Assembly: GCA_965178125.1 (NCBI GenBank)
Contig: OZ237770.1
Span: 62,001-126,000 of the forward strand
Direction of reading: 5' to 3'
DNA: 64,000 nt
DNA from: Bilabrum cf. latius
Lineage: Eukaryota
The notes under the pieces are model-generated. The model was given only the letters and a program-made list of their open reading frames with translations, did no database searches and was not told the DNA's origin. The position numbers and the translations under genes are program-made. Below, piece after piece: positions 1 through 64,000 of this stretch. Positions within the stretch are counted from its first letter, which is position 1, and the number at the start of each line of letters is the position of its first letter.

Positions 1-2
1 AA

Positions 3-2012
3 TTCCCCACACGAGGCCCCGCTATCAAAGTGCTCTTTGACGCACTACTCGCTATGCCAGCTCCGCCTGAACAACCTAGGGTTTCAAAACCGGTCTCGCC
101 ACCAGAGGTTTCACACCGCCTGTCCGCCGCCCCCTCCCCGGCAGCCAGACGTACGTTGCTGTCCCAGTTAATCTTCCGGTCGCTCCCTCAAGGTGCGTAG
201 CTGGCCAATACAAAAGATCGTCCCGCGCACAGCCTCTGCCCACTAGCCATGGCATCTACCCTGGCCTCTGCGGCACGTCAGGCGGCAGCGGCACGCAAGG
301 ATCAGCCCCCAGCGTGGGCAAGAGCATCACTACCAGAGGTTGGAGCTCGTGTCGGCTAGCCTTTTTCCTTCGGCTCATTCTCGGAGATTACTGGCTCAAT
401 CAGATAGAAAAATCAGGCGGCCGCAGGGGCGGCGGCGCTGGCGGTGGAGACGGCAACTAGCATAGAGGGAACTGTGCCGCGCAGATATAGAGAAGCTGAT
501 GATGTCGCTGCTGCTGCCGTTGAACAGAATGGCGCGGCCAGCAAGACGGTTGCACTGGGGTACGCTGTGCCGCGTGATGCGCCTGAAGAAGCTGATGCTG
601 TCGCTGCTGCTGCCGTTGGGCAGAGTGGCGCGGCCAGCAAGACGGTTGCACCGAGGCACGATGTGCCGCGTGATGCGCCTGAAGAAGCTGATGCTGTCGC
701 TGCTGCTGCCGTTGGGCAGAGCAGCGCGGCCAGCAAGACGGTTGCTCCGGGGTACGCTGTGCCGCGTGATGCGCCTGACGAAGCTGATGCTGGCGCTGCT
801 GCTGCCGTTGGGCAGAGCAGCGCGGCCGGCAAGAAGGTTGCTCCGGGGTACGCTGTGCCGCGTGATGCGCCTGACGAAGCTGATGCTGTCGCTGCTGCTG
901 CCGTTGGGCAGAGTGGCGCGGCCAGCAAGAAGGTTGATCCGGGGTACGCTGTGCCGCGTGATGCGCCTGACGAAGCTGATGCTGTCGCTGCTGCTGCCGT
1001 TGGGCAGAGTGGCGCGGCCAGCAAGAAGGTTGCTCCGGGGTACGCTGTGCCGCGTGATGCGCCTGACGAAGCTGATGCTGTCGCTGCTGCTGCCGTTGGG
1101 CAGAGCAGCGCGGCCAGCAAGAAGGTTGCTCCGGGGTACGCTGTGCCGCGTGATGCGCCTGAAGAAGCTGATGCTGTCGCTGCTGCTGCCGTTGGGCAGA
1201 GCAGCGCGGCCAGCAAGAAGGTTGATCCGGGGTACGCTGTGCCGCGTGATGCGCCTGACGAAGCTGATGCTGTCGCTGCTGCTGCCGTTGGGCAAACTGG
1301 CGCGGCCAGCAAGGAGCTCCCGGCTACATCTCCAGGACTCGAAGTACCGGAGGCCCACTTACCGGCACCAGAAGCGAACTCTCACCCTCCCAACCTCCTT
1401 CGCACGGAAGATCTTCGCTAGTGTTGGACCACGCACCTCACCAGGTTGAGCTAGATTCGAAGGGTGGTTCGGGTGCAGGTCAACCCGCACGGCAAGCGAC
1501 CTGCCCTGCACACGAACATCATTGCCATACATAGACTCCGATGCCCTAGTTGTAAACAACCCAAGAGCTGTATCGTGCTTTCAGCACTGTAGCAGCTTGT
1601 GGAGAAAGGTGTACCGCTTCAAGACTTCATTACCGCCCAACGACCAAAAGCACTAGCACACCGATGGACCAGACACGCCCAACCCTCCGATGCTGTCGGT
1701 ACCATGGTGTCAGACTTGTTGTCAGAAGGTGTAGCTCGCCATGTGCCGGCTGAGGGCCTCATTGGGGAACCCCTGCGACATTTCATCGTCACGTCTAAGG
1801 ACTACATCTTGAGCGAGAGCGGCCTTCGCAAGGAAGAAGCAGGCGACGGTAGGAAGCCACGGCTTGTCATGGACGGTCGGCCTCTCTCCGCTATATCCCA
1901 ACGAGCTCCGTTCTCAATGGCGGGCATACATCATTTTGCTGCCAACCTTCAGTCCCGCAGTCACATGTTCAGCGTGGATATCAGCGCTGCGTACTACCAC
2001 CTCTCTGGGTGA
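3..2012 (+). CDS. Retrotransposon pol-like ORF (repeat region plus N-terminal half of reverse transcriptase), truncated before YxDD
   Basis: One frame with no TAA/TGA from 3 to 2009. Six in-frame TAGs (198, 357, 405, 1419, 1452, 1590) join track ORFs 444-1421 and 1599-2012. Confidence 0.7.
472..1313 (+). repeat. 96-bp coding tandem repeat, about 9 copies (YAVPRDAPEEADAVAAAAVGQSGAASKKVAPG)
   Basis: Units start at 561, 657, 753, 849, 945, 1041, 1137 and 1233, with a degenerate first unit before them. Confidence 0.95.
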
Positions 2013-2078
2013 TACATGCGATTAGCTTTATCACTCTATGCGCGCGTCTCTATCAACCAGGCCAGGCACCGTACAGAA
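2003..2078 (+). repeat. Terminal repeat B1 (5'-truncated), identical to 2333-2408
   Basis: 76-bp exact match, ctctgggtgatacatgcg...gtacagaa. Confidence 0.92.
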
Positions 2079-2186
2079 TTGGTAATTCGAAGCGAAGGTT
2101 CGCGAAGATAGAGGGTTCTAAACGGAACTACGGCCGTTGATGCTCAGCTCAGTTGTGAGCAGAGCTATAGAGACGTACTTTGTTTC
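2079..2186 (+). repeat. Terminal repeat A2, identical to 35077-35184
   Basis: 108-bp exact match, ttggtaattcgaagcg...tactttgtttc. Confidence 0.92.
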
Positions 2187-4314: not shown

Positions 4315-5080
4315 TCATTTCAGGATCTCATACCGAATCAGCTCGTCCACCAGCTGCAAGATTTCTTCATCTCCATTCGGGTCGGGCGAGGTGACGCTCC
4401 TCAGCTTGGCGCAGATGGACGTCCTCGCCTCCGTGCCTCCCCTCAGGAACTTGGTGCAGGAGACGCTCCTCCGGATGGTGCCTCGGTAGGGTTTGGACCT
4501 GCCCTCGAGCCCTCCCACCGGCCGGAAATTCACCTGCACCTGGAAGCCCCGCACCTTCCCCAGGTCGTGCTCTGCGAAGCCGATGCTGCCGATCTCACCC
4601 GCGAACTCTTGGTCCTCCCGGTGCACCGCCCACTTCCCATCGCCGAATGATGCCTGCCAGCCGCTGAGGTCCGTGTACATGAAATCCCGGTGTAGCCGCA
4701 GAGCCACCTTCCGGTTGGACAGCCGCACCACAGTGACGGCCCCGCCGCCCGCTTGCTCGAGTAGATCCATGGCGCACTGCCTAGCGTACACAGGCTCTTC
4801 CAGCAGCCGGATGATGTTGGCCGACCGCTCCATCCGGGTGGTCTGTGCCGCTCTCCCGCCCCTCCTGCTGCTGAGGATCCGCACCAGCCAGCGGGCCATG
4901 GTGCCCTCGGGGGCCCACCGATCCGGCACCATCCCTCGCAGCGCAGCCTTGCTGGTGGAGGGACCACCCCTGCGGCCTGCAGTGCGGCCCCGCGCTCCCC
5001 TAGCACCAGCACCAGCACCAGCACCAGCACCAGCACCAGCACCAGCACCAGCACCAGCACCAGCACCAGCACCAGCACGG

Positions 5081-5112
<32 letters not shown>

Positions 5113-7350
5113 CGGTGCAGTGGATACTGCGCCGCCCCTTGCGGAACCGGATGGGGATGACATCGACCGGCACCGAGCAGACGGCGGCGGCAGAACGGGT
5201 GAAGGAATGGACTCCATCGCATAGGCGGCATCGTGCAGTGCACGTGCACCATCGTGTAGTGCACCTTGAGGAGTGTTCTGTGCAGCCTCTGCTGCGGCAG
5301 CCGCCACCGACAAGCCATAGATGCCAGCCAGCGAGCCTAAGGCTGAGGCTGAGGGAACAGATGACGATGGTGGCCCCAGGGCAAGCGCAGCATCAGTGGT
5401 GGCTTTTGCGGCCATAGCCAACGCCGGGAGGCCAGATCCCGACCCTGCGCCCCGCCCATGCTTCGTCCCCCTGCTGCTGGCACCTGTCCTTCTTGCGACT
5501 CGGCTCTTGCGCCGTGTGGAGGGTGCCGACGGGGACGGGTGCGAAGATGAGGCACCAGCTGCGTTGTTTCCCATGGCCATCGCGCCGTCAGTAAGCCAGT
5601 CCAGCGAGCCCCCAGCCCGTTGTGGGGGGCGCGCCCGTTCCCAGGAGGACACACCCTGCTGGACCTGGGGTCCACCTTGGAACTAGTTCCCATGGTGGCC
5701 AGGGCCGGGGCCATGGCCGGCCATTTCCGCACCGTGCCCATGGAAAGGCAGCTGCCTGCTTGGATCCTGGCCCTGCATCGCTGTTGGAACCGATGCTGGG
5801 CTGAGTGACTGCAGCACATCGCGGCGTCTCTCGATTTCCGCCTGGAGCGCATCGAGTTCTCGGTGTCTCTGCTGCATCAAGCCCTGCTGGTACTAAAGCA
5901 GCTGGTCCTGCCTCCTGAGCTGCTCGTCCTGTTGCCGGATCTGCAGCTACCTCTGCCCTTGCTACGCCATCCACTGCTGCTGCTGCTAGTTCAAGTGCCA
6001 CAGCTGCTGCTGCTACACCTGCTGCTGGTACAGCTGCTGCTGCTGGTCTAGCTGCTGACTTAATTCATAGTCTGGGTGCATATCAGAGTTCTATGCTGCC
6101 ACAGTGGGCTGCACCTACTCGCGCCAAGCAATGCTAGCCCCGCTCATCGCCTGTTCTGACCCAGCAGAAGCAGATCCTGCCAACGCTGCCGGCCACCTGC
6201 GGTCGGGACCAGCACGGAGCAAGGCTTTGCCGACATCGTCAGTGTCCCAGGTACCCGCATGATCAAGTGCAGCGCCGGTCACGGTGCTTTGGTGCTGCCC
6301 TAGGAATGCACGCGTTGCACTGCTGGCGGCGCCGTGCGTGCTGGCGCTGGTCACATGGTTGGCATGGGCTTGACGAGGAGCCTCGGCGCTCTAGGCCTAC
6401 AGCGGCTCGTACGCGGCACCGTCGCGGCCTAGTGGAATCTGCCGGCTCAGCAGCTGCGTCCAGTTGATGGCGGGGCCACCAGGCCTCCCCGCCGCATGCC
6501 GCATCTCATCCTGGCCCCAGGTCACGGCAGTCGAGCCCTGGTCGCTGACATCCTAGGACGCTTGCTGCTGTATGGTCCGGGGCGGGTGCATCGTTTGTCC
6601 CGCGGCGGCTGGTCCTGTGCTGGCGGCAATCGACCCGCCCAGCCCTCTGAATGCCCCCACTGGCATCGGCACGCTGATGGCTGGCACGGGTGGCAGCGTG
6701 GCCCTGCCCAGCTACTGCTTGAGAGCGTCCACAGTCACTGGAGGCGTGTCGGTTTCGGGTGCAGGGGCAGCGGATTGGGTTTCCGTAGTCGTGTCTGCCT
6801 GTACCGGCCGCTGAATCGCAAAAGAAAAAGTGACCGGAGCGTCGTTGGATCGCATGAATCCGGTTGAATGCACCATGCTCCGCTGTTTGTTGTCGGTTGA
6901 CTGCACCATGCTCCATTGGGTGTTGATAGTTTCAGCATCGTGCTGTCGTTGTTGTGCCTCGCTCCCTCGCAAGCCAAAACCAGAACCAGACCTAATGTAA
7001 GGACCAGGGCCACCAGGCGGAACCACGGACAATGACGCGACCGCTGCGGTAGATCTTGTCTGTGTAGAAGCTGTTTTGTCTCGCCATGTTGGCCCGGTTA
7101 CAATGGTAGCGCTGGTAACGTGGTCGGGAACGGTCGGCGGCGCAGCCGCAGTATCCACAATCCCCGTCAAAGTGAGCGCTTCTTGTCTGTTCCTGCCGGA
7201 CACACCCCCGAGTAAACCGGTATCGCCCCTTGTCATTGAATGAGAGCTGGCTTCATTCTCAGTAGCAGGGCCGTTTCCTAGCCTTGGGCGCGTGGGCTCC
7301 AAAAGTGGGCTTGCAGCTGGCGCAGAAGCGGCGCCATTGCGCACTCCCAT
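4315..7350 (-). CDS. Gln-rich low-complexity hypothetical protein (about 1,010 aa; may have an upstream exon)
   Basis: Track ORFs 6712-7440, 6115-6354, 5683-5880 and 4315-5652 share a frame and are separated only by 12 TAGs. The gene ends at TGA 4315-4317. An acceptor-like TTTTGCAG lies near 7358. Confidence 0.8.
5003..5113. repeat. (GCACCA)n and (GATGAC)n microsatellites encoding poly-GA and poly-S
   Basis: Directly visible. Confidence 0.9.
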
Positions 7351-9703
7351 GGAATCCTGCAAAAGTAGTAGCACAATAAGTTTTTCTTGAGATACACATA
7401 CTGATGTAGCTACTAAGAAACAGCAGTTCATGTACATCAAGCGTTCGATTCATAATGTTGTGTGTGTGGCATGCGCTGACCATCATGCGCTCAAGCCAGG
7501 AATACGGAAGGCTGAGATCCTGATCTACGGTCTGCAGGAAGTCAATTGCCGTAGTAGGGCATATATATGCGAATTCTGCGGTACGCGACTGCTCTGCTCA
7601 CATCAGCCCCGTCAGCTTGGCGCATCTAGTGACGGATCGGTTTACCGTGCAAGGCGTGCTTCTAATCACGTGGATCTGCAGTGATACTAAAGAGATGGCA
7701 CACACTATGCAGTACTGTACATACCTTTATTGTCGTGTGCGTATCAATGGGAGCCCGACTTGGATTCTGATCATCCGAAGCATCTTCTCCAGATCGCCAG
7801 GATGTATGGAACAGATTCCACGGCTTGAGATCGACTAAGACAAGAATGCCAAACTTGTTGACTAATATCCAGTACGAAAGTAAGCAAACATCGTTTCACA
7901 CCAACAAAACACAACGTTCTCACCATCCTACTGTGGGACGTACGATTCCGTCCTTCGTTGCGTCCGAGCTGGAGGCGCGTCGTCATCGTTTGGAGCAAGC
8001 TCTGTGGCGTCATCCCTCCGCCGTTTCATCGAAACTTAGGATCTGTTGGATGTGATGGGTCAAGCGGCACCGTTTGCCGGAAGGCTCCTCAGTATTGCCT
8101 TGGTTCGAAGAAGTGTATGTCGGTCTTGACTACGGAGCGTGTCGGTCTCAGTAAGGGCTTCTTCACCAGTGGTTCAAATGAGACTGGTTTATATACACCA
8201 AAACTAGACACATGCGGCCAAGACAGTTCCAGCAAGGGTAGCAATTGGTCACTGAATGGTCCTGATGTGCTGATTGATGAGGTCCAATGGAAGTGCGCGG
8301 CGCCGCCGGCGCGGTGGCACTGGACGACGCGATCCAAATGCCGACGCCAGAGTCGAAGCACCTCAACCGCGAACGCGCTGGGAATCGGCGGAGAACTTGC
8401 AATGCTCATGATTGGCGAAAATGTGCAGATACATAGTCAGGACAATTTTGCGTGAAAGAAGGCGATCCATCCCCATACTTCATGCTTTACGTCTATTTAG
8501 CCAGAAGTAGAAATGACACCACATTCAATGGCGTGCTCATGTGCTTAATAGTGTGAATGCGGGACGTGTGTGATTCTGCGGCATGTGCGCTGTGTAACGC
8601 AGAGAAGATAGGCCTGTTGCGGCTCAGAATCATGTTCGCAAGATGGACAGCACACAACACAGGTCCTGCAGTGCTATAAGTATGCGCGTTAACATGACCT
8701 CGGGTGGAGTGGTGTTGTGATTGTTGTTATGATATTCGTAAGGGTATCGGATGCATGAAATTGCAAGTCGAACCATTCAAAGTCGCGCGTCGAGTAGAAT
8801 GGCAAGAATGGGCGTGCCCCCCACACGGGCCCTTATCATATCAGGCCACACACTCAGGCATTAGAACGGCAGCCGTTTGGTTGCGCAATTACTTTTCTGT
8901 GCCACGTTTCGTGCACCCACTCGAGAGGTTCCGCAAGAGCCTAAGTAGACGAGCGCGCACCAACATCCATGGACAGCAGCGAATGCATGTTTTTCTGCGG
9001 ATGAACTGAGTCCTGGACCCGTTGTCAATTTAATAATCAATGCAGTGACGCAGCTGGTGCTTGGCATGCATGGCCCGGGATCCATGGTCCGCACATGCAG
9101 GATGCCATCAGCTCGACGCACCGCGTTGTCAGCAACATCAGTCTGGAGGTCCGTTCTCCACGACTTGCGGCGACATGGAAATAAACCGATTCGAGTGCAG
9201 ACCTTTCCGCGACACCAGCGCACGCCACTGCTGCGGTCCATCCGGATTCCATGGTATGACTGCTTGGAACTGGCACCGTCAGAGATTCGATCCGTCCTGC
9301 TGCGCCGTGCATCGAAATGCATCGCCAGCGTGCTGCCAATGCCGCATAATGCACCCCATTGAAACAGTTTGCTCGGCTCGTGACCTATAATGGCACCAGC
9401 AGACGTCACAGGTGATTGGAGGCGTCCGGTCCTCGCCAAACGCCCTCACAAATCTCTTCGTGCATTATGGCCCGAAAACCTGCCCAAAAATGACTGCCTC
9501 TGCGTAGCCCTACCCCGAGGCTATCGGCTCGTACCATTCAAATCCCCCGGATATCAGGCAACTACAACATGCTATTGGTGTCCGATGCATGCTTCTAGAT
9601 TGTGATGCCTCACTGTGACCTTCCGATGTCTCCGCACTACTACAGCCACGGGGTGTTGCAACACATTCCAGGGATGTCAGCTGTGCAGCTGCAAGCCTTC
9701 TGT

Positions 9704-12700
9704 TTACCTGCACTTCTGCAGCGCGGTCCCAACCACCTTGCCGAGGACATCCACCGCCTCCTGCTCGGAGAGAATCAGCCCTTTGGAGGGGCGCACACCC
9801 ACGAGCACCCGAGTCGATGAATCCTCTACTACCATCGATGCGTCATCGCCAGCCGCCACAATCATGCCCGCTGTCGATGGCCCAGCTCCGGGCCCCGAGA
9901 GCCACACCGAGTCCTGGCACGACTCCCCAGCACCTGCTGCCAATGCCAGTCCACCCGTGGATCCATCCGCTCCTTCTGCGTGGACGCCAGCACCAGCACT
10001 GGATGCATCTCCTCCTGATGTCGGTCTCGGCTCGCCAACCGCCATTTCACCAGGCAATCGAACTGCAACGCCGTCGGCAGGCACCACCACGCTCTCCAGC
10101 CGGAACCGGGCTTGCACCGCCTGCCCCCAGGCGTCTGAAGTCGCATGCGCACTTCCGTCGCCCCCATTGCCGGCACCAGCCCCAGCATCCCCGCTCCCGC
10201 TCCCAGAGGCACCCGCACCCGCAGCCCCTGCGACAGACAAGGGCGGGCTCACCAGTGCACCCAGCCAGCCCGCAGCCCGCCGTAGCATGCCACCCTCGCC
10301 GATGCTCCCTGATTTGTTCCCTGGTTCAGGCCGTGCGTCTGTTTCGGACCCGCCTTCTTCGGCACTTCGGTGCGATGCTCCCGAGCGAGCCGCGATCTTT
10401 CTGGCAGCCTCCAAGGCGTCCGAGCTTCCACCAGCATGCGATGCATCTGTCCCAGCCGATAGTGTCGAGTCCTGTGACTGGCGCTCGGCATCGGGTGCCG
10501 CGGTGATGCGTGGTTCCGCAATGGCCAGCAGCACCGGCTGCTACTCTGACGGCTTTGAGGCTGCCGCGTTCTTGCCGTGCGCAGCAGCACTGCCAGTGGT
10601 TGTTCCCCGGGCGACTCCGCTGGCGCTTGCACCACCTTGCGATGCACCCTCATCGTCGCTGCTTTCCCCGCCGGACAGCATCCCGGCCGCCGCCGAGCCA
10701 GGTCTGAAATGTGGTGTGACGAGTGCGCTGCGCTACACCATGGCCCTGGCACCGGGCCCCACGATCAGCAGCAGCCTCGGCTCCGCACTCGCCACACCTG
10801 CATCGCCGACCCGCGAGGTCCTCTTCACCGGGACGATGCCCACATGCTGCGGCAGGCCAGCGATCCAGGGCCCGCCCAGCCGCACCCACACAAGCCCCCG
10901 CGCTAATGTGGGTTGGCTGCCAGGCACCGAGCAAGAATCCACCGGTGGGTACTCCAGCGGTGGGCCTCGCGCAAGTGCAGTCCCGATCTTGCGGAACTCG
11001 AGCCCGAGGGCGGTGTCCTTGACGGTGGGCAGCAGCGGAACCGACCCTTTGCTCGATTGCGCGGTGCCAGGGGAAGCCACTTTGTCCACCCCTTCCACGT
11101 CCACCTTGTCCATCCCGTGCCAGTGACCCCCCGGGAGCAATCGCCTGGATTTCGCCAGAGCCCGCACAGCTCGCCTGCACCCCTTGCGGCGCTTGGCCCT
11201 GCGCGCTGCCTTCTGCTCTGGGCTTTCCTTTGCTGGCTGGTGCTTCTGCTTGATAGGCTTTGCCTTGGCGCCTTTGTGGCTTGCTCCTTGCCCGCCTACT
11301 GAGCCGGTCGTGGGTGTTTCGGTCGAGGCTGCGTTCGTCACACCATCGTTGGATTCAATCGCACCACCGTGCGATGCACCTGTGCTACTCGATGTGGACC
11401 ACGTGGAGGGTGGTGGGTCTGCGGCGCCGCCGAACCAGTTGGAAATGGTGCGGAACCGGCGAGCCGCCGCCTCGCGGCCGGCCTCCAACCGGTGCTGCAG
11501 GGACTCCCGGATGGTCGTAGCGCCTGCACCACCGTGTGATGCACCTTCGGGTGCTGCGGAGGAACCCGAAGGTGCGAGGCCAGGTACCGCACCGGATTGC
11601 GCGGCGCCATCACCCTCTCCAAAGAGCAGACGGCCGAGCACCGTGGTGGACGACGATCTGGGACGGGACTCTTCACTCGTCACACCAGACGACCCCACGC
11701 TGCTTCGAGACCCGACCCTGTTACGCTTCAGCGTTCTTCCCTTCCCTGCACCTTGCTTGTTCCCTGGCTCGATCCATCGCGCCCGCGGCATTGGAGCCGG
11801 CTCGTCGGCGTAGTCTTCATCCGATCCGATGTCATCCACGTCATCTGCAGCGGCGTATGCACTACTCGAGCCGCCCTATGATCCGGTGTGACCACTATCT
11901 CCGGTTTGACCGCCCTTGTTCTCTCCTCGCACCAGCGCCTTGCCTCCCTGCAGACGGTGTGCCGCTGCCCCTCGTACTCGCATTTCGTCCAGCAGCCACG
12001 GCCAGGGAACAGCTCGGAGAGAACGTTCGCTGCGGGTATTTCTATGAGTTCCCTTCTCAGCATCATCGACAGACACTCCAGGGCCAGCCCCAGGGCCACC
12101 ACCTCCGCCCTCGGTCTTGGTCTTGGCTGTCCCAGCCGATGGAGCCTCGAAGCTTTGCCCGCTATCCTCGTCCCTGCCGCATTCATCGATGCCCTCTTGT
12201 TCCTTCTCCTTCTCATTCTCCCCCTCCTATTCCTGTTCCTTCTCTATCTTATCCAACTCCAGCCCCTCGCCGTGCAATGACACCGCCAATGACTCGCGGT
12301 CACCAGCACCCATGCTGCGGTACGCCGCCACCACTCGTGCAAACCCACCCGCCACCACGCTAACTCTCTAGAACCCCCTTTGCAGCAGGTACAGCGGCAG
12401 CAGCTTAGATGCCTCACCGCTGCTGTACGCCGCCTCCGGGCCGGCAGACATGTCCGTTGAGTTCCCGCCCAGCGACCTTCCCGTTGACATCACCGCAACG
12501 TGAGCCCCGGCCTGGTTCAGATCCCTGAGTCCTTGGAGCGCGGCTGCCAGCGCGTCAGGACTCTCCAGAAGGCAAGGGTCTAGGTTCACAGCGCCCTGGA
12601 TCCGGAGCCCGTCTGCCAGTGCGGCGTGGGGCCGGCAGTCTAGCAGCAGGTACTGGGGGGCTGCTGGGGCGGCGCGTGATTCGGATTTAGCTCTGCCCGT

Positions 12701-21892: not shown

Positions 21893-22077
21893 TTATTGTG
21901 TGATTGTGAGACTGATCATCGAACTGACTGCAATTGATACGGAGTAGACCAGATCGCCGGCGCAATCGTGCAATGAATCCGTTGGGCGAACGGACACGAC
22001 ATGATGATTGCACTTTTGTGGACCTCGTATCTCGCAATACACGTGATAGGGGACACAATTCAACTTTAAATTATATC

Positions 22078-51426: not shown

Positions 51427-53183
51427 ATGGCATTAGCGGATACATTCCGATCAGTCAGCACGGATATATTGCTGTTTGGTGATATTTATTCGGTGCTCTG
51501 TGTCAAACCTCTCGGATCCTAGCTAGTATTTGGAGCTCTTGGGTATCCCGGCTAGAAAAATTGCCGCATGTTCACTGGTACGGAATGCGTTCCAGCAAAC
51601 AGAGGAGGCCAGCGCAATCTTGACAAATTGATACATTTATCAAGCCGCCTGAAAGGCGCGCCTCACATTTGCAAGCCATCCGTGAGACAGCCATTGGCTC
51701 CTAATATTCTTGAAGCCACCGAGTGACATAGCAATGATACATAAGTCGCCTTTCCAAGCCTCCCTGTCCGTAAATTTCGATGTTTTAGGACATCCTGGTA
51801 AAGCATACCACAAGGAGCGGCAGACGCATCGCCATGGTGCCATACGAGCCGACCCAGCAGCCAAGCGCGTTCGACATAGTGTCTGCGTTGGGCGGCCTTG
51901 GCACATCTGGCCTTGTGACACACATTGCCAGGCAAGTCATTCTTGGATTGCAAGCATTACAACGAGCGGATGTAGCGCATCGGGACATTAAGCTGCAGAA
52001 CGTGCGGCTGAACCTGGACTATGACTGCGTGCTTGGTGGATTGGAGTATGCTGAACCAACACACGACAGTGGTCATCGGCCGCGAGTGACAAAGAATCCA
52101 GGCGGCACTAAGACATCGAGTCCTCCAGAGTTCTCAGATGGCCAGGCGCACTCGCCGGTGGTGGCAGACATGTGGGCCTTCGGTATCCTGCTCTTCGCTC
52201 TTGCGGTCGGTCGGCCGCCGTTCCGGGTCCCTGATCCGGAGCGTGACGATTGGTACAAACTGTACACGCACAAAGACAAGGTGGTGCGTGACTAGTTTTG
52301 GTCCCGGCACATGAAGGCATCCCGCATCAAGATTGACGCGCACGCGGCCCAGTTCCGCAGCTTGACCGAGGGACTGCTCAACCCGGACCCGATGCGACGA
52401 CTATAGCTGCAGGCGGTGATGAAGCATCCATGGGTGTGCGCGACGTGTCCCAGCCAGAAGATATGCCGGGGGCTGCTGACGGCGATGTGCGAAACGGTAT
52501 TGAGCGTGCGGGAAAGCCAGATGCTCAGTGTTCGACCTTTAGGTCTTGACGGGTACACAGGGATGCTGAGAGTTCATGGAACGACATAGAAACCGGGAGC
52601 ACAGCTGGGCAGATCGGGAACCCGAGGTGAAGTTGGTGCAGGAAGGCCTGCAGAAGGCCTAACGAAGGCAAGTCGCAGCGTAACGAACCATAAAAAACCG
52701 TCGCATCTGTCATGTGGTCTGGATGGCAGCGCCTGCGAGGCGGAAGGACGCGGGACTGAGAGATCTACCCGTATCCGTGGATCTACAGATGGTGCGGCTG
52801 CCTCTACACGTGCGGGTACAGATGGTGCGGCTGCCTCTACACGTGCGGGTACAGATGGTGCGGCTGCCTCTACACGTGCGGGTACAGATGGTGCGGCTGC
52901 CTCTACACGTGCGGGTACAGATGGTGCGGCTGCCTCCACACGTGCGGGTACAGATGGTGCGGCTGCCTCCACACGTGCGGGTACAGATGGTGCGGCTGCC
53001 TCTGGCGGTGCTGCATCTTCAGGTAGCGCTGGCTACCACCAGTCACGAACAGAGGGACAAGGGGCCGGAAGCGGCAACGGTCCCGGCAGTAGCTGGATAC
53101 AGTCTATGCAAGGCCTTGGAAGACATGATAGCGATGAGGAGTGTGATAGTCCGAAGGATTATACCCATTGGCTGGACATGTGA
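51427..53183 (+). CDS. Kinase-like paralogue 2; intron 51682-51788
   Basis: HRDIKLQN, GTKTSSPPE, ADMWAFG and KHPWVC. Five TAGs; stop TGA. Confidence 0.8.
52784..53002 (+). repeat. 33-bp coding tandem repeat, about 6.5 copies (TDGAAASTRAG)
   Basis: Directly visible. Confidence 0.93.
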
Positions 53184-54511: not shown

Positions 54512-57119
54512 ATGGCAGCAATGCATGCTTTTCGATCCATCTGTTCTGATATAAATGTATCTGGTCAAACCTACTCGGTACTTCGTGTCCGTCCTCTCGG
54601 TTCCCAGCTGCCAGTGGTAGTTGGAGCTCTTGGGAGTCCAGGATAGTATATTGTTCGTGTATTTACTGGCACGGAATGCGCCCCGGCGTACAAAAAGGGG
54701 CGATGGAAACTTGATAAATTAATTCGCTTATCAAGCTACCTGAAAGCCGTGCCTCACATTTGCAAGCCATCCGTGAGACAGGCGCAAGATGCGGCATTTG
54801 GATTGATCATGCCAACATGCGCCCGCAGAATTCTGCAATATGTTTGCCGAATGATTCATACTGCAGAAACATTTGGTGAAACACGAGACAAGGAGCGGCA
54901 GACATATCGCCATGGTGCCATACGAACCGACCAGGCAGCCAAGTGTCTTCGACATAGTATCTGCTTTGGGTGGCCTTGGCACATCTGGCCCAGTGACACA
55001 CATTGCCAGGCAAGTCATTCTTGGATTGCAAGCATTACAACGAGCGGATGTAGCGCATCGGGACATTAAGCTGCAGAACGTGCGGCTGAACCTGGACTAT
55101 GACTGCGTGCTTGGTGGATTGGAGTATGCTGAACCAACACACGACAGTAGTCGGTAGCCGCGAGTGACAAAGAACCCAGGTGGCACCAAAACATCGAGTC
55201 CTCCAGAGTTCTCAGATGGCCAGGCGCACTCGCCCGTGGTGGCTGACATGTGGGCCTTTGGAATGCTCCTCTTCACGCTTGCTGTCGGTCGGCCGCCGTT
55301 CCGGTTCCCTGATCCCGAGCGCGACGATTGGTACAAACTCTACACGCACAAAGACAAGGTGGTGCGTGACTAGTTTTGGTCCCGGCACATGAAGGCGTCC
55401 CGCATCAAGATGGACGCGCACGCGGCCCAGTTCCGCAGCCTGATCGAGGGACTTTTGGATCCATGCCCGATGCGACGACTACAGCTTAAGTCGATGATGA
55501 AGCATCCGTGGGTGTGCACGGCATGTCCCAGCCAGGAGATATGCCGGGGGCTGCTGGCGGCGATGTGTGATAGGGTCTCGAGCATGCGAGAGCGTAGTCA
55601 GAGGCGGGGGATGAGAGGAGGAATGGACCCCGAGATGGGAATGGTAGATGCCAAACAGAAGTTGCGTGATGGAGCTGCTGGTACGGGTAATGCTAACCAC
55701 AAGGGCACTGCAGCTGTTCGCCATGATAAGGGTGTTGCTGATGGCCATGGCAAGTTCGCTGGTGTTGGTCTTGGCCATGGCAAGGGTGGTGCTGATGGCC
55801 ATGGCAAGGTCGCTGGTGTTGGTGATGGCCATGGCAAGGGTGGAGCTGATGGCCATGGCAAGGTCGCTGGTGTTGGTGATGGCCATGGCAAGGGTGGAGC
55901 TGATGGCCATGACAAGGTCGCTGGTGTTGGTGATGGCCATGGCAAGGGTGGTGCTGATGGCCATGACAAGGTCGCTGGTGTTGGTCTTGGCCACGGCAAG
56001 GGTGGAGCTGATGGCCATGGCAAGGTCGCTGGTGTTGGTGATGGCCACGGCAAGGGTGGTGCTGATGGCCATGGCAAGGTCGCTGGTGTTGGTGATGGCC
56101 ATGGCAAGGGTGGTGCTGATGGCCATGGCAAGGTCGCTGGTGTTGGTGATGGCCACGGCAAGGGTGGAGCTGATGGCCATGGCAAGGTCGCTGGTGTTGG
56201 TGATGGAGACGGCAAGGGTGGTGCTGATGGCCATGACAAGGTCGCTGGTGTTGGTGATGGCCATGGCAAGGGTGGTGCTGATGGCCATGACAAGGTCGCT
56301 GGTGTTGGTGATGGCCATGGCAAGGGTGGTGCTGATGGCCATGACAAGGTCGCTGGTGTTGGTGATGGCCACGGCAAGGGTGGTGCTGATGGCCATGACA
56401 AGGTCGCTGGTGTTGGTGATGGCCACGGCAAGGGTGGTGCTGATGGCCATGGCAAGGTCGCTGGTGTTGGTGATGGCCATGGCAAGGGTGGAGCTGATGG
56501 CCATGGCAAGGTCGCTGGTGTTGGTGATGGCCACGGCAAGGGTGGTGCTGATGGCCATGACAAGGTCGCTGGTGTTGGTGATGGCCATGGCAAGGGTGGT
56601 GCTGATGGCCATGACAAGGTCGCTGGTGTTGGTGATGGCGACGGCAAGGGTGGTGCTGATGGCCATGGCAAGGTCGCTGGTGTTGGTCTTGGCCACGGCA
56701 AGGGTGGAGCTGATGGCCATGGCAAGGTCGCTGGTGTTGGTCTTGGCGACGGCAAGGGTGGTGCTGATGGCCATGACAAGGTCGCTGGTGTTGGTGATGG
56801 CCATGGCAAGGGTGGTGCTGATGGCCATGGCAAGGTCGCTGGTGTTGGTGATGGCCATGGCAAGGGTGGTGCTGATGGCCATGGCAAGGTCGCTGGTGTT
56901 GGTCTTGGCCACGGCAAGGGTGGAGCTGATGGCCATGACAAGGTCGCTGGTGTTGGTGATGGCGACGGCAAGGGTGGTGCTGATGGCCATGACAAGGTCG
57001 CTGGTGTTGGTGATGGCCCTGGCCAGGGTGGAGCTGATGGCCATGTGAAGGTCGCTAGTGTTGGTATTGGCCATGGCAAGGTCGCTGGTGTTGTACTTGG
57101 ACCCACGGGCATGCCGTGA
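54512..57119 (+). CDS. Kinase-like paralogue 3 with Gly/His-rich repeat tail; intron 54773-54866
   Basis: Same motifs and intron position as paralogue 2. TAGs at 54644, 55155 and 55371; stop TGA. Confidence 0.82.
55740..57090 (+). repeat. 54-bp coding tandem repeat, about 25 copies (DGHGKVAGVGDGHGKGGA)
   Basis: Directly visible. Confidence 0.95.
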
Positions 57120-57994: not shown

Positions 57995-59568
57995 ATGGCA
58001 ATCACGGACGCATTTCGATCGGTAAACACGGATATTATTTTATCTGGTGATACCTGTTCGGTGCTCCACGTGAAACCTCTCGGCTCGCAGCTGGTGGTAG
58101 GAGCACTCGGGTATCCCGGGTAGAAGAATATCCGTTTGTTTACCGGCACGGAATGCGTCCCGGAATGCAAAGGGGGGCAGCGTAATCTTGATAAATTAAT
58201 ACATTTATCAAGTCGCTTGCAAGGCGCACATCACATCTGTAAACCATCCGTGAGAGACCCAAATACATTTTCGCAGTCGGTTTGGTCACCTGCTTAGGCG
58301 CAGTCTCTTCGTCTTATGTACCTGATCTGTCTATTTTGCAGAAGACTGTCGAAAAGCATACCACAGAGAGTGGTAGACGAATAGCCATGGTCCTATACGA
58401 GCCAATCCAGCAGCCAAGCGTGTTCGACATAGTATCTGCTTTGGGTGGCCTTGGCACATCTGGCCTTGTGACACACATTGCCAGGCAAGTCATTCTTGGA
58501 TTGCAAGCATTACAACGAGCGGATGTAGCGCATCGGGATATTAAGCTGCAGAACGTGCGGCTGAACCTGGACTATGACTGCGCGCTTGGTGGATTGGAGT
58601 ATGCTGAACCAACACACGACAGTAGTCGGTAGCCGCGAGTGACAAAGAACCCAGGTGGCACCAAGACATCGAGTCCTCCAGAGTTCTCAGATGGCCAGGC
58701 GTACTCGCCCGTGGTGGCTGACATGTGGGCCTTTGGAATCCTGCTCTTCACTCTAGCGGTCGGCAGGCCGCCGTTCCGGGTCCCTGATCCCGAGCGTGAC
58801 GAGTGGTACAAACTCTACACGCACAAAGACAAGGTGGTCCGTGACTAGTTTTGGTCCCGGCACATGAAGGCATCCCGCATCAAGATAGACGCTCATGCGG
58901 CCCGATTCAGAGACCTGATCGAGGGACTCGTGTTGCCCGACCACAAGCGACGACTACAGCTGCAAGCAGTGATGAAGCATCCATGGGTGTGCACGACGTG
59001 TCCCAGCCTGGAGATCTGCCGGGGGTTGCTGACGGCGATGTGCGATAGGGTCTCGAGCATGCGAGAGCGTAGTCAGAGGCGGGGGATGAGAGGAGGAATG
59101 GACCCCGAGATGGGAGCGGCAGATGCTGGTAAGGGTGATACCGATCATGATGGTGCTGCTGGTGGCCATAAGGGCGATAGGGTATCAAGTGTGCGAGAGA
59201 GTCGTCAGAGGCGGGGGATGAGAGGAGGAATGGACCCTGAGATGGGAGTGGTAGATGCTGGTAAGGGTGATACCGATCATGATGGTGCTGCTGGTGGCCA
59301 TAAGGGCGATAGGGTATCAAGTGTGCGAGAGAGTCGTCAGAGGCGGGGGATGAGAGGAGGAATGGACCCTGAGATGGGAGTGGTAGATGCTGGTAAGGGT
59401 GATACCGATCATGATGGTGCTGCTGGTGGCCATGATAAGGGCATTCCTGCTGGTGGCCATGATTAGGGCATTGCTGATGGCCATGGCAAGGGTGGCCCTG
59501 GTGGTCTTGGCAAGGGTGGCCCTGGTGGTCTTGGCAAGAAGGCTGCTGCTGGAAATGGTCCGAAATAA
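57995..59568 (+). CDS. Kinase-like paralogue 4; intron 58250-58341
   Basis: Same motifs and intron. TAGs at 58121, 58630, 58846 and 59464; stop TAA. Confidence 0.82.
59044..59433 (+). repeat. 132-bp coding tandem repeat x3
   Basis: Units start at 59044, 59176 and 59308. Confidence 0.92.
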
Positions 59569-60693: not shown

Positions 60694-62134
60694 ATGCACA
60701 CTTTGTGGGTGGGTGTATGATACTAGATCTAGTGCACAGTGACAGTGCAGCGTCAGTTGGCCACAAGCAGTTAGCCACACATACTGGGGAACTGTTTGCA
60801 TCGAATCGTGGACGGTGATGGGGCTGGTGTGGGTGGCCTAGCAGCTGGATGCGATGCGCTGGCGTCGCTTGGCCAGAGCAGGGCACCACTCGTCCTGGGC
60901 CTGCTACCGGTCAGTGGGAGAGTGCTTGGGCATGGAGGGCAGGGCAGCAATGGGGAGTTTCACCGTGCCGGGTTGGATTGATGCAGACTGACATCGTCAG
61001 GAAGAGGATGCAGTAAAGTGTAGTAGGTCGGTGGTTGGTGAGAATCACGTGCTAGTCCTTGCTGCTGGCTTCCAGGCCAGCGCTTGAAATGCTCATCTTG
61101 GGACACCGCGAGGGGGGCGTCGACTGTGTCAAATTTGCTCTTCGAGGCAGCGTTGAGGACTGGCCTGCTTGTGCACGGCACAGAGTGATGGATGGGGAAT
61201 GGAGTAGTCGGAGCAGTGCTCGCGAGTCACCATAATGGGTGAGTGCCCGCCTTCTGGGGCATCTGCGGAACTGTGGCGTGAATGCACAGGGGTTGATGTT
61301 TACGATGGTTTGCTTATTTGAGCCGGACAGGATGTTGTTACTAATGAGCACGAAGTACTCCAAGCTGTTCCCAGCACCCAAGGGCTTCACCTCGAACTAC
61401 TGGTCTTCTCCTAGCCCACATCTGGATCAATGCAGTATTGAATCTAGTGTACTTCTGATTCAACAAACCACTTTCCCCGTGCACTTCGATTGGCCTCGTC
61501 TATCCGGGATCTGGATGTTCGGCTCCACGTCTATCCGGAATCTGGATGTGCGGCTCCACGTTCCCGTTCCTGTTCCGAACGAGAACGTGGCTGCTCCCCG
61601 CCCTGCTCCCTGCATTGCCACCTTGGTCCCATCCCCTCAGCTTCCATGTTCAAGTCCTGGCCGGCCTGCCATGCGCCCCATATATCCACCCTCCTGTTGG
61701 CCCTCTGCGCACTGTTGGCCATGCAGCCCGCTGCCACTCGCGTCTCCCTTGTGCCTGGCACCTGGAGCCCCCCTTCCTCCCGTTGTGTTCTTCCCGTTGA
61801 CACCGCACTATCGTTGCTTTCTCCGGTGTCTTGTTTTTGTTCTTCTCCACTTCCTGTTCGCCTACGCCCATCCCGACTTCCAGCGCATCTCGGTTCCCCT
61901 TCGCTTCAATCCATGACCACGTCCGCACCCGCCGCCCAGCCCCCCTCGAAGAACGCGACAGATTTGATCCCCTGTCCCCGATCGTGTTGATGCCCATTGG
62001 ATTTAAGTGCGGAGCGACATTCGGAAGTGCAGTTAGGCTGCACATGGGGTGGCTGGAAATGCGTGGAATGAACGGAAACCGGAACTGACACATGGACAAA
62101 GCCTGATGAATCAAATTGCCTCACTTTGAAACGA

Positions 62135-63379
62135 ATGCCAGTTGAATTCGCGAATCAAGCTGACATCTATGCGTCAAAGAGTCCCATTTGGGATGGCTCT
62201 GGCGGAATACGTGCAGAAATGGTACAGGATATACAGCACAAGTCTCGCGACCTATTTACAGGACACATTCCAGCATGTGGAGAGAAGTGGCACCAAGAAA
62301 TCCTTGTTGCCACTGGAGATGCCGTAATTACTGCTGTGAAAAGGCGCATGATTGCTGTCAGACTTGGATAGCATGCCAATATCTAGCAAACCACTGTAAG
62401 GTAGTCTGGCCAAATCCGTTTCGCTACGTGTAAGTCCCGTTCACTATGCGTGCGTGCAGCGACAAGTACTTACTTATTAATTTTGCAGGGCTATTGTCTC
62501 GAGTACAAGGGAAAGCCAGCGAAGGTAGTCGTATTTGCTCCAGAACGTAAAACAGACCTGTTCTCGTTGGTGAGCAAATGTGGGGGCTTTGGTACTGTAG
62601 GTGTTTCAATTCATGTAGCACGAGAAATCATCCTTGCGCTTGATCATGTGAATAGGCGTCAGATTGCGCACCGTGACATCAAGCTGGAGAGCATCGCATT
62701 GGGTGAAGCAGGAAATATTGTGCTGAGCAATTTCATTTACAGCATTCCAACCCATGATGGCAAAATGTGCCCGCTCACCACGAAGCTGAGGAGCGGAACT
62801 AAGGCCTATGCAGCGCCCGAATCTCTAGCGGGGGCGGCGCACAACCCAGTGACGGCCGACATGTGGAGCCTGGGAATGCTGCTATTCTGCCTGGTCATGG
62901 GGAGGCCGCCTTGCCGCGTGGCCGACGATTCGGACAAGTGGTTCCGCGTGCTGAAGCGCAAGAACAAGAGGGAGATGGACGAGTTCTGGACTAAGCACAT
63001 GCGGGCCTCTAGAATCAAAATCGACGCGCACGCCGTGCACTTCCGGTCACTGATCGAAGGGCTGCTGGAAGTAAACCCCCTGCGTCGCTTGCAGATGCAG
63101 GCTGTCAAGAAGCACCCGTGGGTGTGCACGGTGTGTCCGCCGATCGACACGTGCAGGGGCATGATCGTTAAGATGGCAGAGAGAATCGAGCGACGGCGCA
63201 GCAGTGCTCCAAAGAAGCCAGCAGCAGCGCCCAAGCAGGGAGGCGTGGGCATCGCCGCCCCTCGAGAGGGCGGACAGAAGCGGGTGGTAGTGACAAAGGC
63301 TGCCACTTCAGGGCAATGCGGCCGGCCCCCTCATATAACGGTGGCACGAAAGGTAAAACAGCCGGCCATGGCCCAATAA
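62135..63379 (+). CDS. Kinase-like paralogue 5; intron 62396-62488
   Basis: HRDIKLES, GTKAYAAPE, ADMWSLG and KHPWVC, with DFG replaced by NFI. Intron at the homologous position. TAGs at 62369 and 62384; stop TAA. Confidence 0.85.
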
Positions 63380-63602
63380 TGCAGAGAGAGTGGAGGAGGA
63401 AAGGGGAGGGGGCACAGCCGGGATTGCCTGCGTGCTGCCACCCTGCAGGTGGCGGCGAGACCAGGCATGACTGCAGCAGGCGGGGTTGCCAAACTCAGGC
63501 CCTATTTGTAATGTTGAGCTTAAGAGATGTGCATTGCGACGAATTCGGCTGGTGCATGTACCCGGATGGGTGTCAAAACCTAAAAGCTAGATCCGCATAC
63601 CC

Positions 63603-64000
63603 TCAGCCCCTTTGCATCTTGTACTAGCTGTCATCGCCGCCCGCCATGCTCTCCTGATGCTTCATCACGTTGTCCACCACGTGCTGGGCGAAGGGGTTGG
63701 AGCAGGTCCACGCCGGAGACACGGCGTTCAGCACGTGCGTGGACCGGGCGTCGCCCTCCACGAGGAAATCCATCACCAGGGAGCGCTTCTCGGTGTCCAC
63801 CAGCTGTGCCCTGATGCCTGCCTTGCCATACTCTGTGAAGTTCTCAAGACCCACGCCCTTGACAAGCTCGGAGGCGCCCTGCGCCATGTACTGCTTGGAA
63901 TACTTGCGCATCTCAGACATGGCAAGTCCCCTGAAATCAAAGGAGGCGTTCACGAAGAGTCCCATCTCGGTCATGGCGATGTCAATCAGTTCCTGCGCGT
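63603..64000 (-). CDS. lhgO: L-2-hydroxyglutarate oxidase-like FAD oxidoreductase, 3' part
   Basis: AGIRAQLVD, LVMDFLVE and STHVLNAVSPAWTCS. Reading TAG 63624 as sense gives a stop at TGA 63603. Confidence 0.8.

What the first reader, a model, noticed from the sequence alone, without database searches (positions are those of the whole stretch)
1..64000. Variant nuclear genetic code: UAG is a sense codon (most likely Gln) while UAA and UGA stay stops
Seen: about 90 in-frame TAGs across some 15 genes on both strands. Frames run 4-5 kb with many TAGs and no TAA/TGA. The confidently placed gene ends are TGA (4315, 14854, 24043, 24961, 30101, 37163, 53181, 57117) or TAA (21890, 59566, 63377). Known: UAA and UAG are usually reassigned together. 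UAG-only changes are rare, with reports for Iotanema (Gln), a rhizarian (Leu) and some ciliates. Inference: this GC-rich genome with Ngaro-like elements does not look like a ciliate, so the reassignment may be independent. It predicts a tRNA-Gln(CUA) and an eRF1 that ignores UAG; neither is in this window.
Basis: partly seen in the sequence, partly recalled or inferred. Interest (0 to 1): 0.97.

Follow-up and report, generated by a model that had tools for sequence, protein, structure and literature searches.

The report
UAG read as glutamine, nuclear genes
This GC-rich protist DNA has long genes that stay open only if the stop codon UAG is read as an amino acid, most likely glutamine, while UAA and UGA still end genes; an environmental relative does the same, so it looks like a further natural case of a rare genetic-code variant.

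Summary
In 15 stop-to-stop frames (13,792 codons) there are 102 in-frame TAG, 0 TAA and 0 TGA. The +1 and +2 frames of the same DNA carry 245 and 422 TAA+TGA. Reading TAG as sense opens five frames of 1,507-1,681 codons; reading TAA as sense changes almost nothing.

Conserved catalytic domains lie downstream of in-frame TAGs in the MYCBP2-like RCR ligase and the S9 acylaminoacyl-peptidase. Both genes end at TGA where their homologues end.

A second study's DNA contigs match at 38 TAGs. Two contigs with a 110-nt GT..AG intron removed keep all 21 TAGs of one gene.

A relative from two metagenome contigs (54-56% identity) also has 8 in-frame TAGs and no TAA/TGA in 1,015 codons.

Gln is favoured. 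TAG aligns with CAG/Gln at three conserved TBC-domain columns, about 74-fold over the next residue.

All named top TBC1D23 homologues are stramenopiles, and the nearest is Cafeteria.

The variant is known from Iotanema and two ciliates. I found no report for stramenopiles.

The tRNA, eRF1 and any residual UAG termination could not be tested.

The parts
4315..7449 (-). Frame of 1,044 codons with 12 in-frame TAG, ending in TGA. No Pfam family. Seven of the TAGs lie in an 85-residue Gln-rich tract (aa 440-525).
   Evidence: Fisher test of the 7 TAGs in the 85-residue tract against 5 in the other 959 residues, p = 1e-5
9704..14251 (-). TBC1D23-like gene (RabGAP-TBC plus rhodanese), last large exon. 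1,515 codons, 6 TAG (aa 194, 628, 675, 792, 1173, 1237), ending in TAA.
   Evidence: Pfam RabGAP-TBC E = 5.9e-16; homologues; TAG columns
14854..16437 (-). dCMP/cytidine deaminase gene. 527 codons, 1 TAG (aa 89, outside the domain), ending in TGA.
   Evidence: Pfam dCMP_cyt_deam_1 E = 2e-25
17369..21892 (+). Low-complexity frame of 1,507 codons with 7 TAG, ending in TAA. No Pfam family.
21928..24045 (+). Coiled-coil-like frame of 705 codons with 5 TAG, ending in TGA.
24961..29997 (-). MYCBP2-like RING-Cys-relay (RCR) E3 ligase. 1,678 codons, 9 TAG, ending in TGA 9 codons after the alignment to MYCBP2 ends.
   Evidence: PDB 5o6c_A E = 3.1e-34, query residues 12-289 of the last 298
30101..35146 (-). 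Acylaminoacyl-peptidase (APEH_N plus Peptidase_S9). 1,681 codons, 9 TAG, ending in TGA followed at once by TAA.
   Evidence: Pfam; 173 homologues with E <= 0.001; 5 of 6 checked homologues end 2-3 residues after the alignment ends, the sixth 14, and the query goes on 8-12 residues
37163..41894 (-). Exon 2 of an orphan membrane-protein gene with 21 in-frame TAG, ending in TGA at 37163-37165.
41895..42004 (-). 110-nt intron (GTAAGT...TGCAG on the minus strand). It is absent from one contig each of runs X6 and X8 and present in the contigs of DNA runs X1 and X5.
   Evidence: joint 41894->42005; sequence
42005..42038 (-). Coding part of exon 1. The ATG at 42038-42036 is in frame with exon 2 across the splice.
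   Evidence: read; X8 record 29 covers 42005-42121
42359..42963 (+). 605-nt GT..AG interval skipped in contigs of X6 and X8. It is a probable intron of a plus-strand transcript.
   Evidence: joint 42358->42964
43349..44416 (+). Doubtful frame of 355 codons with 10 TAG, about four times the usual density. The last TAG comes directly before the TGA. It may be only partly coding.
46680..47978 (+). Protein-kinase C-lobe exon with 4 TAG, ending in TAA.
   Evidence: Pfam Pkinase E = 2e-20
51774..53183 (+). Protein-kinase paralogue with 4 TAG, ending in TGA. Its TAGs at aa 5 and aa 211 face CAG in the paralogues.
54855..57119 (+). Protein-kinase paralogue with a long Gly/His/Lys repeat tail. 2 TAG, ending in TGA.
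58243..59568 (+). Protein-kinase paralogue with 3 TAG, ending in TAA.
62072..63379 (+). Protein-kinase paralogue with 3 TAG, ending in TAA.
3..2012 (+). Frame cut by the window's start, holding a 9-fold peptide repeat. 6 TAG, closed by TGA 67 nt before a 108-bp repeat (2079-2186).

Best explanation
The window is nuclear DNA of a GC-rich microbial eukaryote, probably a heterotrophic stramenopile near the bicosoecids. Its cytoplasmic translation reads UAG as glutamine and ends proteins at UGA and UAA.

Shown here: UAG is a frequent sense codon, 7.4 per 1,000 codons and about 16% of all putative Gln codons. It stays in spliced transcript-like contigs. It is shared by a divergent relative. It sits at Gln columns of a conserved domain.

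Inferred from how other UAG-only codes work (Panek et al. 2017, abstract seen, and passages of PMC9161772 seen): a tRNA-Gln whose anticodon changed from CUG to CUA reads UAG. Because C34 pairs only with G, it leaves UAA alone. The release factor eRF1 would have lost or weakened its recognition of UAG while keeping UAA and UGA.
For: (1) Sense use. There are 102 TAG, 0 TAA and 0 TGA in frame in 13,792 codons. The off-frames hold 245 and 422 TAA+TGA. Five frames of 1,507-1,681 codons appear only with TAG as sense.

(2) Domains continue past TAGs. The APEH_N domain (aa 273-308) and the S9 catalytic domain (aa 1414-1653) lie in one frame with five TAGs between them and two inside the catalytic domain. 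The MYCBP2-type RING and tandem-cysteine domains lie after 6 TAGs and enclose 3 more (E = 3.1e-34).

(3) Not an error, editing or an intron. Contigs of a second study's DNA run (X5) cover 38 TAGs with 0 differences. X8 record 29 (5,001 nt) and X6 record 23 (4,969 nt) lack the 110-nt GT..AG intron yet match 37013/37020-41894 with 0 differences, so they keep all 21 TAGs.

(4) A relative. L001 (3,046 bp) is one open frame of 1,015 codons with 8 TAG and no TAA or TGA. L002 shows the same, and the protein is 54-56% identical.

(5) Gln.
- The TAG shared by window and relative (aa 194) faces Q in 4 of 4 members of the sister clade, including Cafeteria.
- The relative's TAGs at aa 226 and aa 238 face CAG in the window, with flanks 94% and 100% identical.
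- Among 110 homologues those columns read Q 38 / L 42 and Q 51 / E 10.
- Over the three columns Q is about 74 times as likely as the next residue, R.
- Two kinase TAGs face CAG in three paralogues each.
- 7 of the 12 TAGs of one gene lie in its Gln-rich tract (p = 1e-5).
- Summed BLOSUM62 scores over 8 partner columns are Q 25, E 18, K 8, R 8.

(6) Stops. The RCR ligase and the S9 peptidase end at TGA within 8-12 codons of the end of their alignments to homologues. After 14 of 15 terminal stops a further in-frame TAA or TGA follows within 9-49 codons.
Against: Two well-aligned columns put TAG opposite Glu. Window TAG aa 628 faces GAG in the relative. The TAG shared by three kinase paralogues faces GAG in two more distant paralogues. 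One column faces Ser and one faces Arg.

The S9 column (D 31, E 9, R 6, K 4, Q 3 of 61) and the RCR column (facing F, next to Q) are uninformative.

The Gln-rich tract and the (QG)n and (EQ)n contexts would also tolerate Glu.

No tRNA(CUA), eRF1, peptide or ribosome-profiling evidence was available. The kind of runs X6 and X8 is a guess, and the tool rates X6 as probably DNA.

Frames were defined as free of TAA and TGA, so UAG acting as a terminator in some genes could not be seen. One gene has a TAG 14 codons before its TGA, and one doubtful frame has TAG-TGA in tandem.

The sample is 64 kb and about 15 genes.
Confidence: 0.85

Rival explanations
1. UAG is a sense codon but codes for glutamate (as in peritrichs, Blastocrithidia and the ciliate PL0344) or for another residue such as Leu.
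For: TAG faces GAG in the relative at window aa 628, with flanks 94% identical. The TAG shared by three kinase paralogues faces GAG in two distant paralogues. Column aa 226 reads L 42 against Q 38 among 110 homologues. Q/E-rich low-complexity contexts tolerate E.
Against: Over the three TBC columns E does not reach the top six residues and Q is about 74-fold above the next one. The sister clade has Q in 4 of 4 at the shared TAG. TAG faces CAG at four strongly conserved ortholog or paralogue columns. Column aa 238 is Q in 11 of 12 close homologues. Q to E is a common replacement, so two E partners are expected under Gln.
Confidence: 0.06
2. The code is ambiguous. UAG is Gln inside genes but also ends some genes depending on context, as stop codons do in Condylostoma, karyorelicts or Blastocrithidia's UAA.
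For: It cannot be excluded here, because frames were delimited by TAA and TGA only. The last TAG of gene 37163-41905 is 14 codons before the TGA, and frame 43349-44416 ends TAG-TGA.
Against: The two homology-anchored ends are both TGA. TAG is not enriched in the last 50 codons: 4 in 750 codons against an overall rate of 0.0074. TAGs are spread evenly along genes, with quintile counts 20, 21, 27, 16, 18.
Confidence: 0.1
3. UAG is read with no dedicated suppressor tRNA: a near-cognate tRNA-Gln(CUG) reads it efficiently and release at UAG is weakened.
For: No tRNA gene is in the window, so a tRNA(CUA) is only predicted. C at the base after TAG is 36% against a 23% background.
Against: Up to 21 TAGs in one gene and 7.4 per 1,000 codons would need near-complete decoding. 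The base after TAG does not differ from that after CAG (p = 0.10). From abstracts only: suppressor tRNA genes were reported for UAG=Leu ciliates and for Amoebophrya Kv.
Confidence: 0.07
4. The in-frame TAGs are artefacts: pseudogenes, assembly errors, C-to-U style editing that restores CAG, or unrecognised introns.
For: None found.
Against: Only one of the three stop codons occurs in frame. An independent DNA assembly agrees at 38 TAGs, and contigs lacking the intron keep 21 TAGs unchanged. A divergent relative shows the same pattern, with one TAG at the same codon.
Confidence: 0.01

Closest known systems
Iotanema spirale (Metamonada: Fornicata): UAG = Gln, with UAA and UGA as terminators (Panek et al. 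2017, PMC5304391; abstract seen)
   Same: UAG has the same meaning, and UAG and UAA are decoupled in the same way. This is a microbial eukaryote outside the ciliates.
   Different: The lineage differs: the named nearest TBC1D23 homologues here are stramenopiles. This case rests on genomic DNA with GC of 51-64%, while Iotanema was described from a transcriptome. In Iotanema an eRF1 change (GTS motif, Thr to Gly) was reported (passage of PMC9161772). eRF1 could not be examined here.
Phyllopharyngean ciliates Hartmannula sinica and Trochilia petrani: UAG = Gln (McGowan et al. 2024, PMC11687900; abstract seen)
   Same: UAG alone is reassigned to Gln and is widely used as a sense codon.
   Different: Those are ciliates, and their abstract says UAA is fixed as the preferred stop. 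Here TGA closes 10 and TAA 5 of 15 frames, and nothing points to a ciliate.
NCBI translation table 15 (TAG = Gln; name and content recalled, not from a call) and crAss-like phages using 'genetic code 15' (PMC9523058, start of abstract seen in the listing)
   Same: The codon table is formally the same.
   Different: Those users are phages of bacteria, or a ciliate assignment that is historically doubtful (recalled). This is a eukaryotic nuclear genome with spliceosomal introns.
Rhizaria sp. exLh and three uncultivated phyllopharyngean ciliates: UAG = Leu (abstracts)
   Same: Only UAG is reassigned and UAA is kept as a stop.
   Different: The residue differs. Leu is co-major at only one of the three TBC columns (L 42 against Q 38) and is not among the ten commonest residues listed at the other two.
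Amoebophrya sp. ex Karlodinium veneficum, Blastocrithidia, Condylostoma: all three stop codons also act as sense codons
   Same: In-frame UAG occurs in essential genes.
   Different: Here there is no in-frame TAA or TGA in 13,792 codons. Amoebophrya Kv is described as AT-rich (passages of PMC12005148), unlike this window.

Membership tests
UAG = Gln nuclear code with UAA and UGA as stops (Iotanema / table-15 type) | UAG occurs in frame inside conserved protein-coding genes | tested here: met
   102 TAG in 13,792 codons. Conserved S9, RCR and TBC domains lie downstream of TAGs or span them.
UAG = Gln nuclear code with UAA and UGA as stops (Iotanema / table-15 type) | UAG falls at columns where homologues have Gln | tested here: met
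   Three TBC columns give Q about 74-fold over the next residue among 110 homologues. The sister clade has Q in 4 of 4 at the shared TAG. TAG faces CAG in an ortholog and in paralogues. Two columns face Glu.
UAG = Gln nuclear code with UAA and UGA as stops (Iotanema / table-15 type) | UGA terminates translation | tested here: met
   The RCR ligase and the S9 peptidase end at TGA within 8-12 codons of the end of their alignments to homologues. There are 0 in-frame TGA against 207 and 357 in the off-frames. Transcript-like contigs end about 145-150 nt after the TGA at 37163.
UAG = Gln nuclear code with UAA and UGA as stops (Iotanema / table-15 type) | UAA terminates translation and is not a sense codon | tested here: met
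   There are 0 in-frame TAA against 38 and 65 in the off-frames. Reading TAA as sense lengthens no long frame. Five frames end at TAA. No TAA end is anchored by homology.
UAG = Gln nuclear code with UAA and UGA as stops (Iotanema / table-15 type) | UAG is not used as a terminator | tested here: inconclusive
   Both homology-anchored ends are TGA, and TAG is not enriched near 3' ends. With about 15 genes, occasional UAG termination cannot be excluded.
UAG = Gln nuclear code with UAA and UGA as stops (Iotanema / table-15 type) | A cognate tRNA-Gln with anticodon CUA | not testable with these tools
   The window has no tRNA gene and no whole genome is held.
UAG = Gln nuclear code with UAA and UGA as stops (Iotanema / table-15 type) | An eRF1 changed in UAG recognition | not testable with these tools
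   eRF1 is not in the window and no genome is held.
UAR = Gln code (table-6 type: ciliates, hexamitins, some green algae) | UAA is used in frame together with UAG | tested here: not met
   0 in-frame TAA in 13,792 codons. The relative L001 has 0 TAA in 1,015 codons.
Codes with all three stop codons also read as sense (Condylostoma, Blastocrithidia, Amoebophrya Kv) | In-frame UGA and UAA in conserved genes | tested here: not met
   0 of each in 13,792 codons.
Stramenopiles (lineage of the organism) | Conserved genes group with stramenopile orthologues | tested here: inconclusive
   All 5 named clusters among the 20 best non-self TBC1D23 hits are stramenopiles: Cafeteria, Mucochytrium, Aphanomyces, Albugo and Bremia. 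A quick one-gene tree puts window plus L001 next to the Cafeteria clade with SH-aLRT 99, on a long branch with shared GC bias. The best named S9 peptidase hits are Closterium, a diatom and plants at 33-39% identity. There is no rRNA and no multi-gene test.

The most novel reading that the evidence does not exclude
This would be the first nuclear stop-codon reassignment in stramenopiles. A so far unrecognised clade near the bicosoecids, with at least two members whose TBC1D23 orthologues are only 54-56% identical, independently turned UAG into a Gln codon while keeping both UAA and UGA as terminators. It did so in a GC-rich genome, where UAG is not expected to be rare. That would argue against simple 'codon capture by disappearance' and for a route through a tRNA(CUA) gain with ambiguous decoding.
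Probability: 0.45. Interest if true: 0.78.

Novelty: new member of a known kind. Interest (0 to 1): 0.72.

Why it matters
Reassignment of UAG alone is rare. The abstracts I read name Iotanema, a rhizarian and a few phyllopharyngean ciliates. Such cases show that the translation machinery can tell UAG from UAA.

A further independent case would add a natural replicate for asking how eRF1 loses UAG recognition and how a tRNA(CUA) arises. This one is in a GC-rich, apparently stramenopile lineage. It has genomic DNA, transcript-like contigs and an environmental relative.

There is also a practical point. Standard-code gene callers cut these genes into pieces. P0001, P0020, P0121 and P0122 are fragments that coincide with pieces of these genes. 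P0020 ends exactly where the window gene has a TAG, and L001 has a TAG three codons before the stretch that matches P0121. Annotation and binning of this lineage in public assemblies and metagenomes are therefore likely to be wrong until the code is set.

Tried and rejected
- Whole genome: none is held, so no genome-wide tRNA or eRF1 search was possible. ARAGORN found no tRNA in the window.
I did not pursue that question.
- Homologue search for the 21-TAG gene 37163-41905 (aa 480-1580, near lengths): none, so it is an orphan.
- Word-based search for the RCR region at near lengths: none. The PDB search then identified MYCBP2, but its TAG column (aa 1623) is uninformative.
- The S9 peptidase TAG columns are uninformative. 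One is variable (D 31, E 9, R 6, K 4, Q 3 of 61) and one lies in an insertion.
- Test of stops flanked by long open stretches: uninformative, because TAGs are too dense within genes (first part).
- Search for kinase N-lobes (GxGxxG) upstream of the five kinase exons: nothing convincing. Upstream exons remain unplaced.
- Pfam on 1500-4300 in three frames, reading through stops as X: no family. The 'Ngaro-like' label stays unsupported.
- Base after TAG: C-rich against all codons but not different from the base after CAG (p = 0.10).
- Sequencing runs: no RNA holder is listed. The kind of X6 and X8 is a guess.
- Amoebophrya sp. ex K. veneficum was considered as the source and rejected. It is AT-rich and has all three stops in frame.
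- Literature searches for a stramenopile nuclear code change and for recent UAG-only reports found none for this kind of organism. The one extra hit (PMC6733595) concerns plastid codes.
- The careful tree search did not finish. The quick tree was used.

Full report
**The observation**

The window has 51-64% GC and no N. Under the standard code the longest stop-to-stop frame is 916 codons. With TAG read as sense, six frames exceed 1,000 codons: 1,681, 1,678, 1,580, 1,515, 1,507 and 1,044. With TAA as sense nothing lengthens beyond 916. With TGA as sense many short frames fuse, but none exceeds 954.

In 15 frames on both strands (13,792 codons) I count 102 in-frame TAG and no TAA or TGA. The +1 and +2 frames of the same DNA hold 38 TAA / 99 TAG / 207 TGA and 65 / 111 / 357. 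TAA and TGA are therefore excluded from the reading frame, while TAG is as common in frame as out of it.

**What the genes are**

- 9704-14251(-) carries RabGAP-TBC and rhodanese domains. Its homologues are named TBC1D23.
- 14854-16437(-) is a dCMP deaminase.
- 24961-29997(-) ends in a RING plus tandem-cysteine module that matches the solved MYCBP2 RCR ligase (5o6c_A, E = 3.1e-34).
- 30101-35146(-) is an acylaminoacyl-peptidase with APEH_N and Peptidase_S9 domains.
- Five plus-strand frames between 46.7 and 63.4 kb are protein-kinase C-lobes. Pfam's Pkinase model was run on four of them; the fifth (54855-57119) is placed only by its alignment to the others.
- 37163-41905(-) is a membrane-protein-like orphan with 21 TAGs and no homologue.

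In the peptidase and in the ligase, conserved catalytic parts lie downstream of several TAGs in the same frame. Translation must therefore pass them.

**Artefacts are excluded as far as the data go**

Nine public runs from four studies hold the 10-kb probe, under four coded organism labels. I laid four of them on 24001-44000.

Contigs of the DNA runs X1 and X5 show no difference at any TAG. X1 may be the source of the window. X5 comes from another study and covers 38 TAGs. The only differences lie in a repeat, at 36045-36163.

Runs X6 and X8 each hold a contig in which 41895-42004 is missing. This 110-nt interval reads GTAAGT...TGCAG on the minus strand. The splice joins an ATG-bearing first exon (ATG at 42038) in frame to the long frame. 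These contigs (4,969 and 5,001 nt) match 37020/37013-41894 with 0 differences, so all 21 TAGs are kept. They end about 145-150 nt after the TGA at 37163.

A second GT..AG interval (42359-42963, plus strand) is also skipped in both runs.

One caveat: the kind of X6 and X8 is a guess, and the tool rates X6 as probably DNA. The joined forms are absent from the DNA runs X1 and X5.

**A relative shares the trait**

A HMMER search with the TBC gene's first 660 residues found three fragments at 56-88% identity, P0121, P0122 and P0189. L001 shows a TAG three codons before the stretch that matches P0121, which fits a standard-code gene call cut there.

A scan of metagenome contigs gave two loci, L001 (3,046 bp, GC 0.61) and L002 (1,905 bp), from two records. 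They are 54-56% identical to the window's protein. L001 is a single open frame of 1,015 codons with 8 TAG and no TAA or TGA, and L002 agrees. One TAG (window aa 194) is at the same codon in both organisms. The code is thus a property of a lineage, not of one assembly.

**Which amino acid**

The best evidence is the conserved TBC domain.

- At the shared TAG (aa 194), the four members of the sister clade in a one-gene tree, Cafeteria among them, all have Q. More distant homologues have E, S, Y or H.
- The relative's TAGs at aa 226 and aa 238 face CAG in the window, with flanks 94% and 100% identical.
- Among 110 homologues, aa 238 is Q in 51 (the next residue is E with 10) and aa 226 is Q in 38 (L has 42).
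- Over the three columns Q is about 74-fold more likely than the next residue, R.

Within the window, two TAGs of kinase 51774 face CAG in three paralogues each. Seven of the 12 TAGs of gene 4315-7449 lie in its 85-residue Gln-rich tract (p = 1e-5).

Some evidence points the other way. Window TAG aa 628 faces GAG in the relative. A TAG shared by three kinases faces GAG in two distant paralogues. One column faces Ser and one faces Arg.

Summed BLOSUM62 scores over these eight partner columns are Q 25, E 18, K 8 and R 8. Glu is the only real rival, and I rate it at about 6%.

**Stops**

The ligase ends at TGA 9 codons after its alignment to MYCBP2 ends, which is 5 residues before the end of the solved chain. 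The peptidase ends at TGA-TAA 8-12 codons after its alignments end; five of the six checked homologues stop 2-3 residues after theirs, and the sixth 14.

Ten of the 15 frames end in TGA and five in TAA. After 14 of the 15 ends a further in-frame TAA or TGA follows within 9-49 codons.

Whether UAG ever terminates cannot be decided from 15 genes. TAGs are evenly spread along genes and are not enriched near 3' ends.

**Who it is**

The best peptidase homologues are only 33-39% identical: Closterium, a diatom and plants.

For TBC1D23 I looked up the 20 best non-self hits, and 5 clusters carry names. All five are stramenopiles: Cafeteria, Mucochytrium quahogii, Aphanomyces, Albugo and Bremia.

A quick maximum-likelihood tree puts window plus L001 (support 100) next to a clade of Cafeteria and three unnamed sequences (SH-aLRT 99). 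The branch is long, composition is skewed in many rows, and the careful search did not finish.

I take 'stramenopile near bicosoecids' as a lead, not a result.

**Mechanism**

Shown: UAG is decoded as a sense codon at a rate of 7.4 per 1,000 codons. That is 102 TAG against 383 CAG and 172 CAA.

Inferred: a tRNA-Gln(CUA) one mutation away from tRNA-Gln(CUG). It reads UAG but not UAA, which explains why UAA stays a stop. With it would go an eRF1 that no longer recognises UAG. Neither could be examined.

**Comparison and novelty**

UAG = Gln with UAA and UGA as stops is known from Iotanema spirale (abstract) and from the ciliates Hartmannula sinica and Trochilia petrani (abstract). UAG = Leu is known from a rhizarian and other phyllopharyngeans (same abstracts).

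Six full-text searches found no nuclear code change reported for a stramenopile, nor for an organism like this one. Supplements were closed and subscription papers are not in the library.

I therefore file this as a new member of a known kind. It is probably an independent origin in a new major lineage, and it is unusual in being GC-rich.

Noticed in passing
window 35077-35184 and 2079-2186: A 108-bp unit occurs twice in the window at 100% identity. It stands as a separate contig at about 10 times the single-copy depth in run X1 (229.9 against 23.4). It looks like a short dispersed repeat. The copy at 2079 begins 67 nt after the TGA that closes frame 3-2012.
   Followed up: partly
window 35155-36452: This stretch has about 4 times the neighbouring depth in X1 and X6. 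It is the only place where runs differ from the window: substitutions at 36045 and 36163 in X5, and one base left out at 36055 in X1, X5 and X6. It is probably a multi-copy element. The window may carry a 1-base error or variant at 36055.
   Followed up: no
window 46680-63379 (+): Five paralogous protein-kinase C-lobe exons lie in tandem, each followed by a different simple-repeat tail, for example a very long Gly/His/Lys/Asp repeat in 55.6-57.1 kb. The N-lobes were not found upstream.
   Followed up: partly
window 1-64000: Genes lie in same-strand blocks: minus 4.3-16.4 kb, plus 17.4-24.0 kb, minus 25.0-41.9 kb, plus 43.3-63.4 kb. Spacers are very short. Only about 100 nt separate the TGA of the peptidase gene (30101) from the upstream end of the ligase's open frame (29997), and 36 nt separate 21892 from 21928.
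   Followed up: no
window 3-1449 (+): A roughly 38-residue peptide unit (...AAAAVGQSGAASKKVAPGYAVPRDAPDEADAV...) is repeated about nine times at the start of the frame cut by the window's edge.
   Followed up: no
runs X1-X9: The same 10 kb is held almost whole by runs of four studies filed under four different coded organism labels. In X5 it stands at only about 2-fold depth in a 694-Mb contig set. The organism may be a companion, contaminant or symbiont in other organisms' samples, or it may be filed under several names.
   Followed up: no
window 30101-30098 (-): The peptidase gene ends with the tandem stop TGA-TAA.
   Followed up: no
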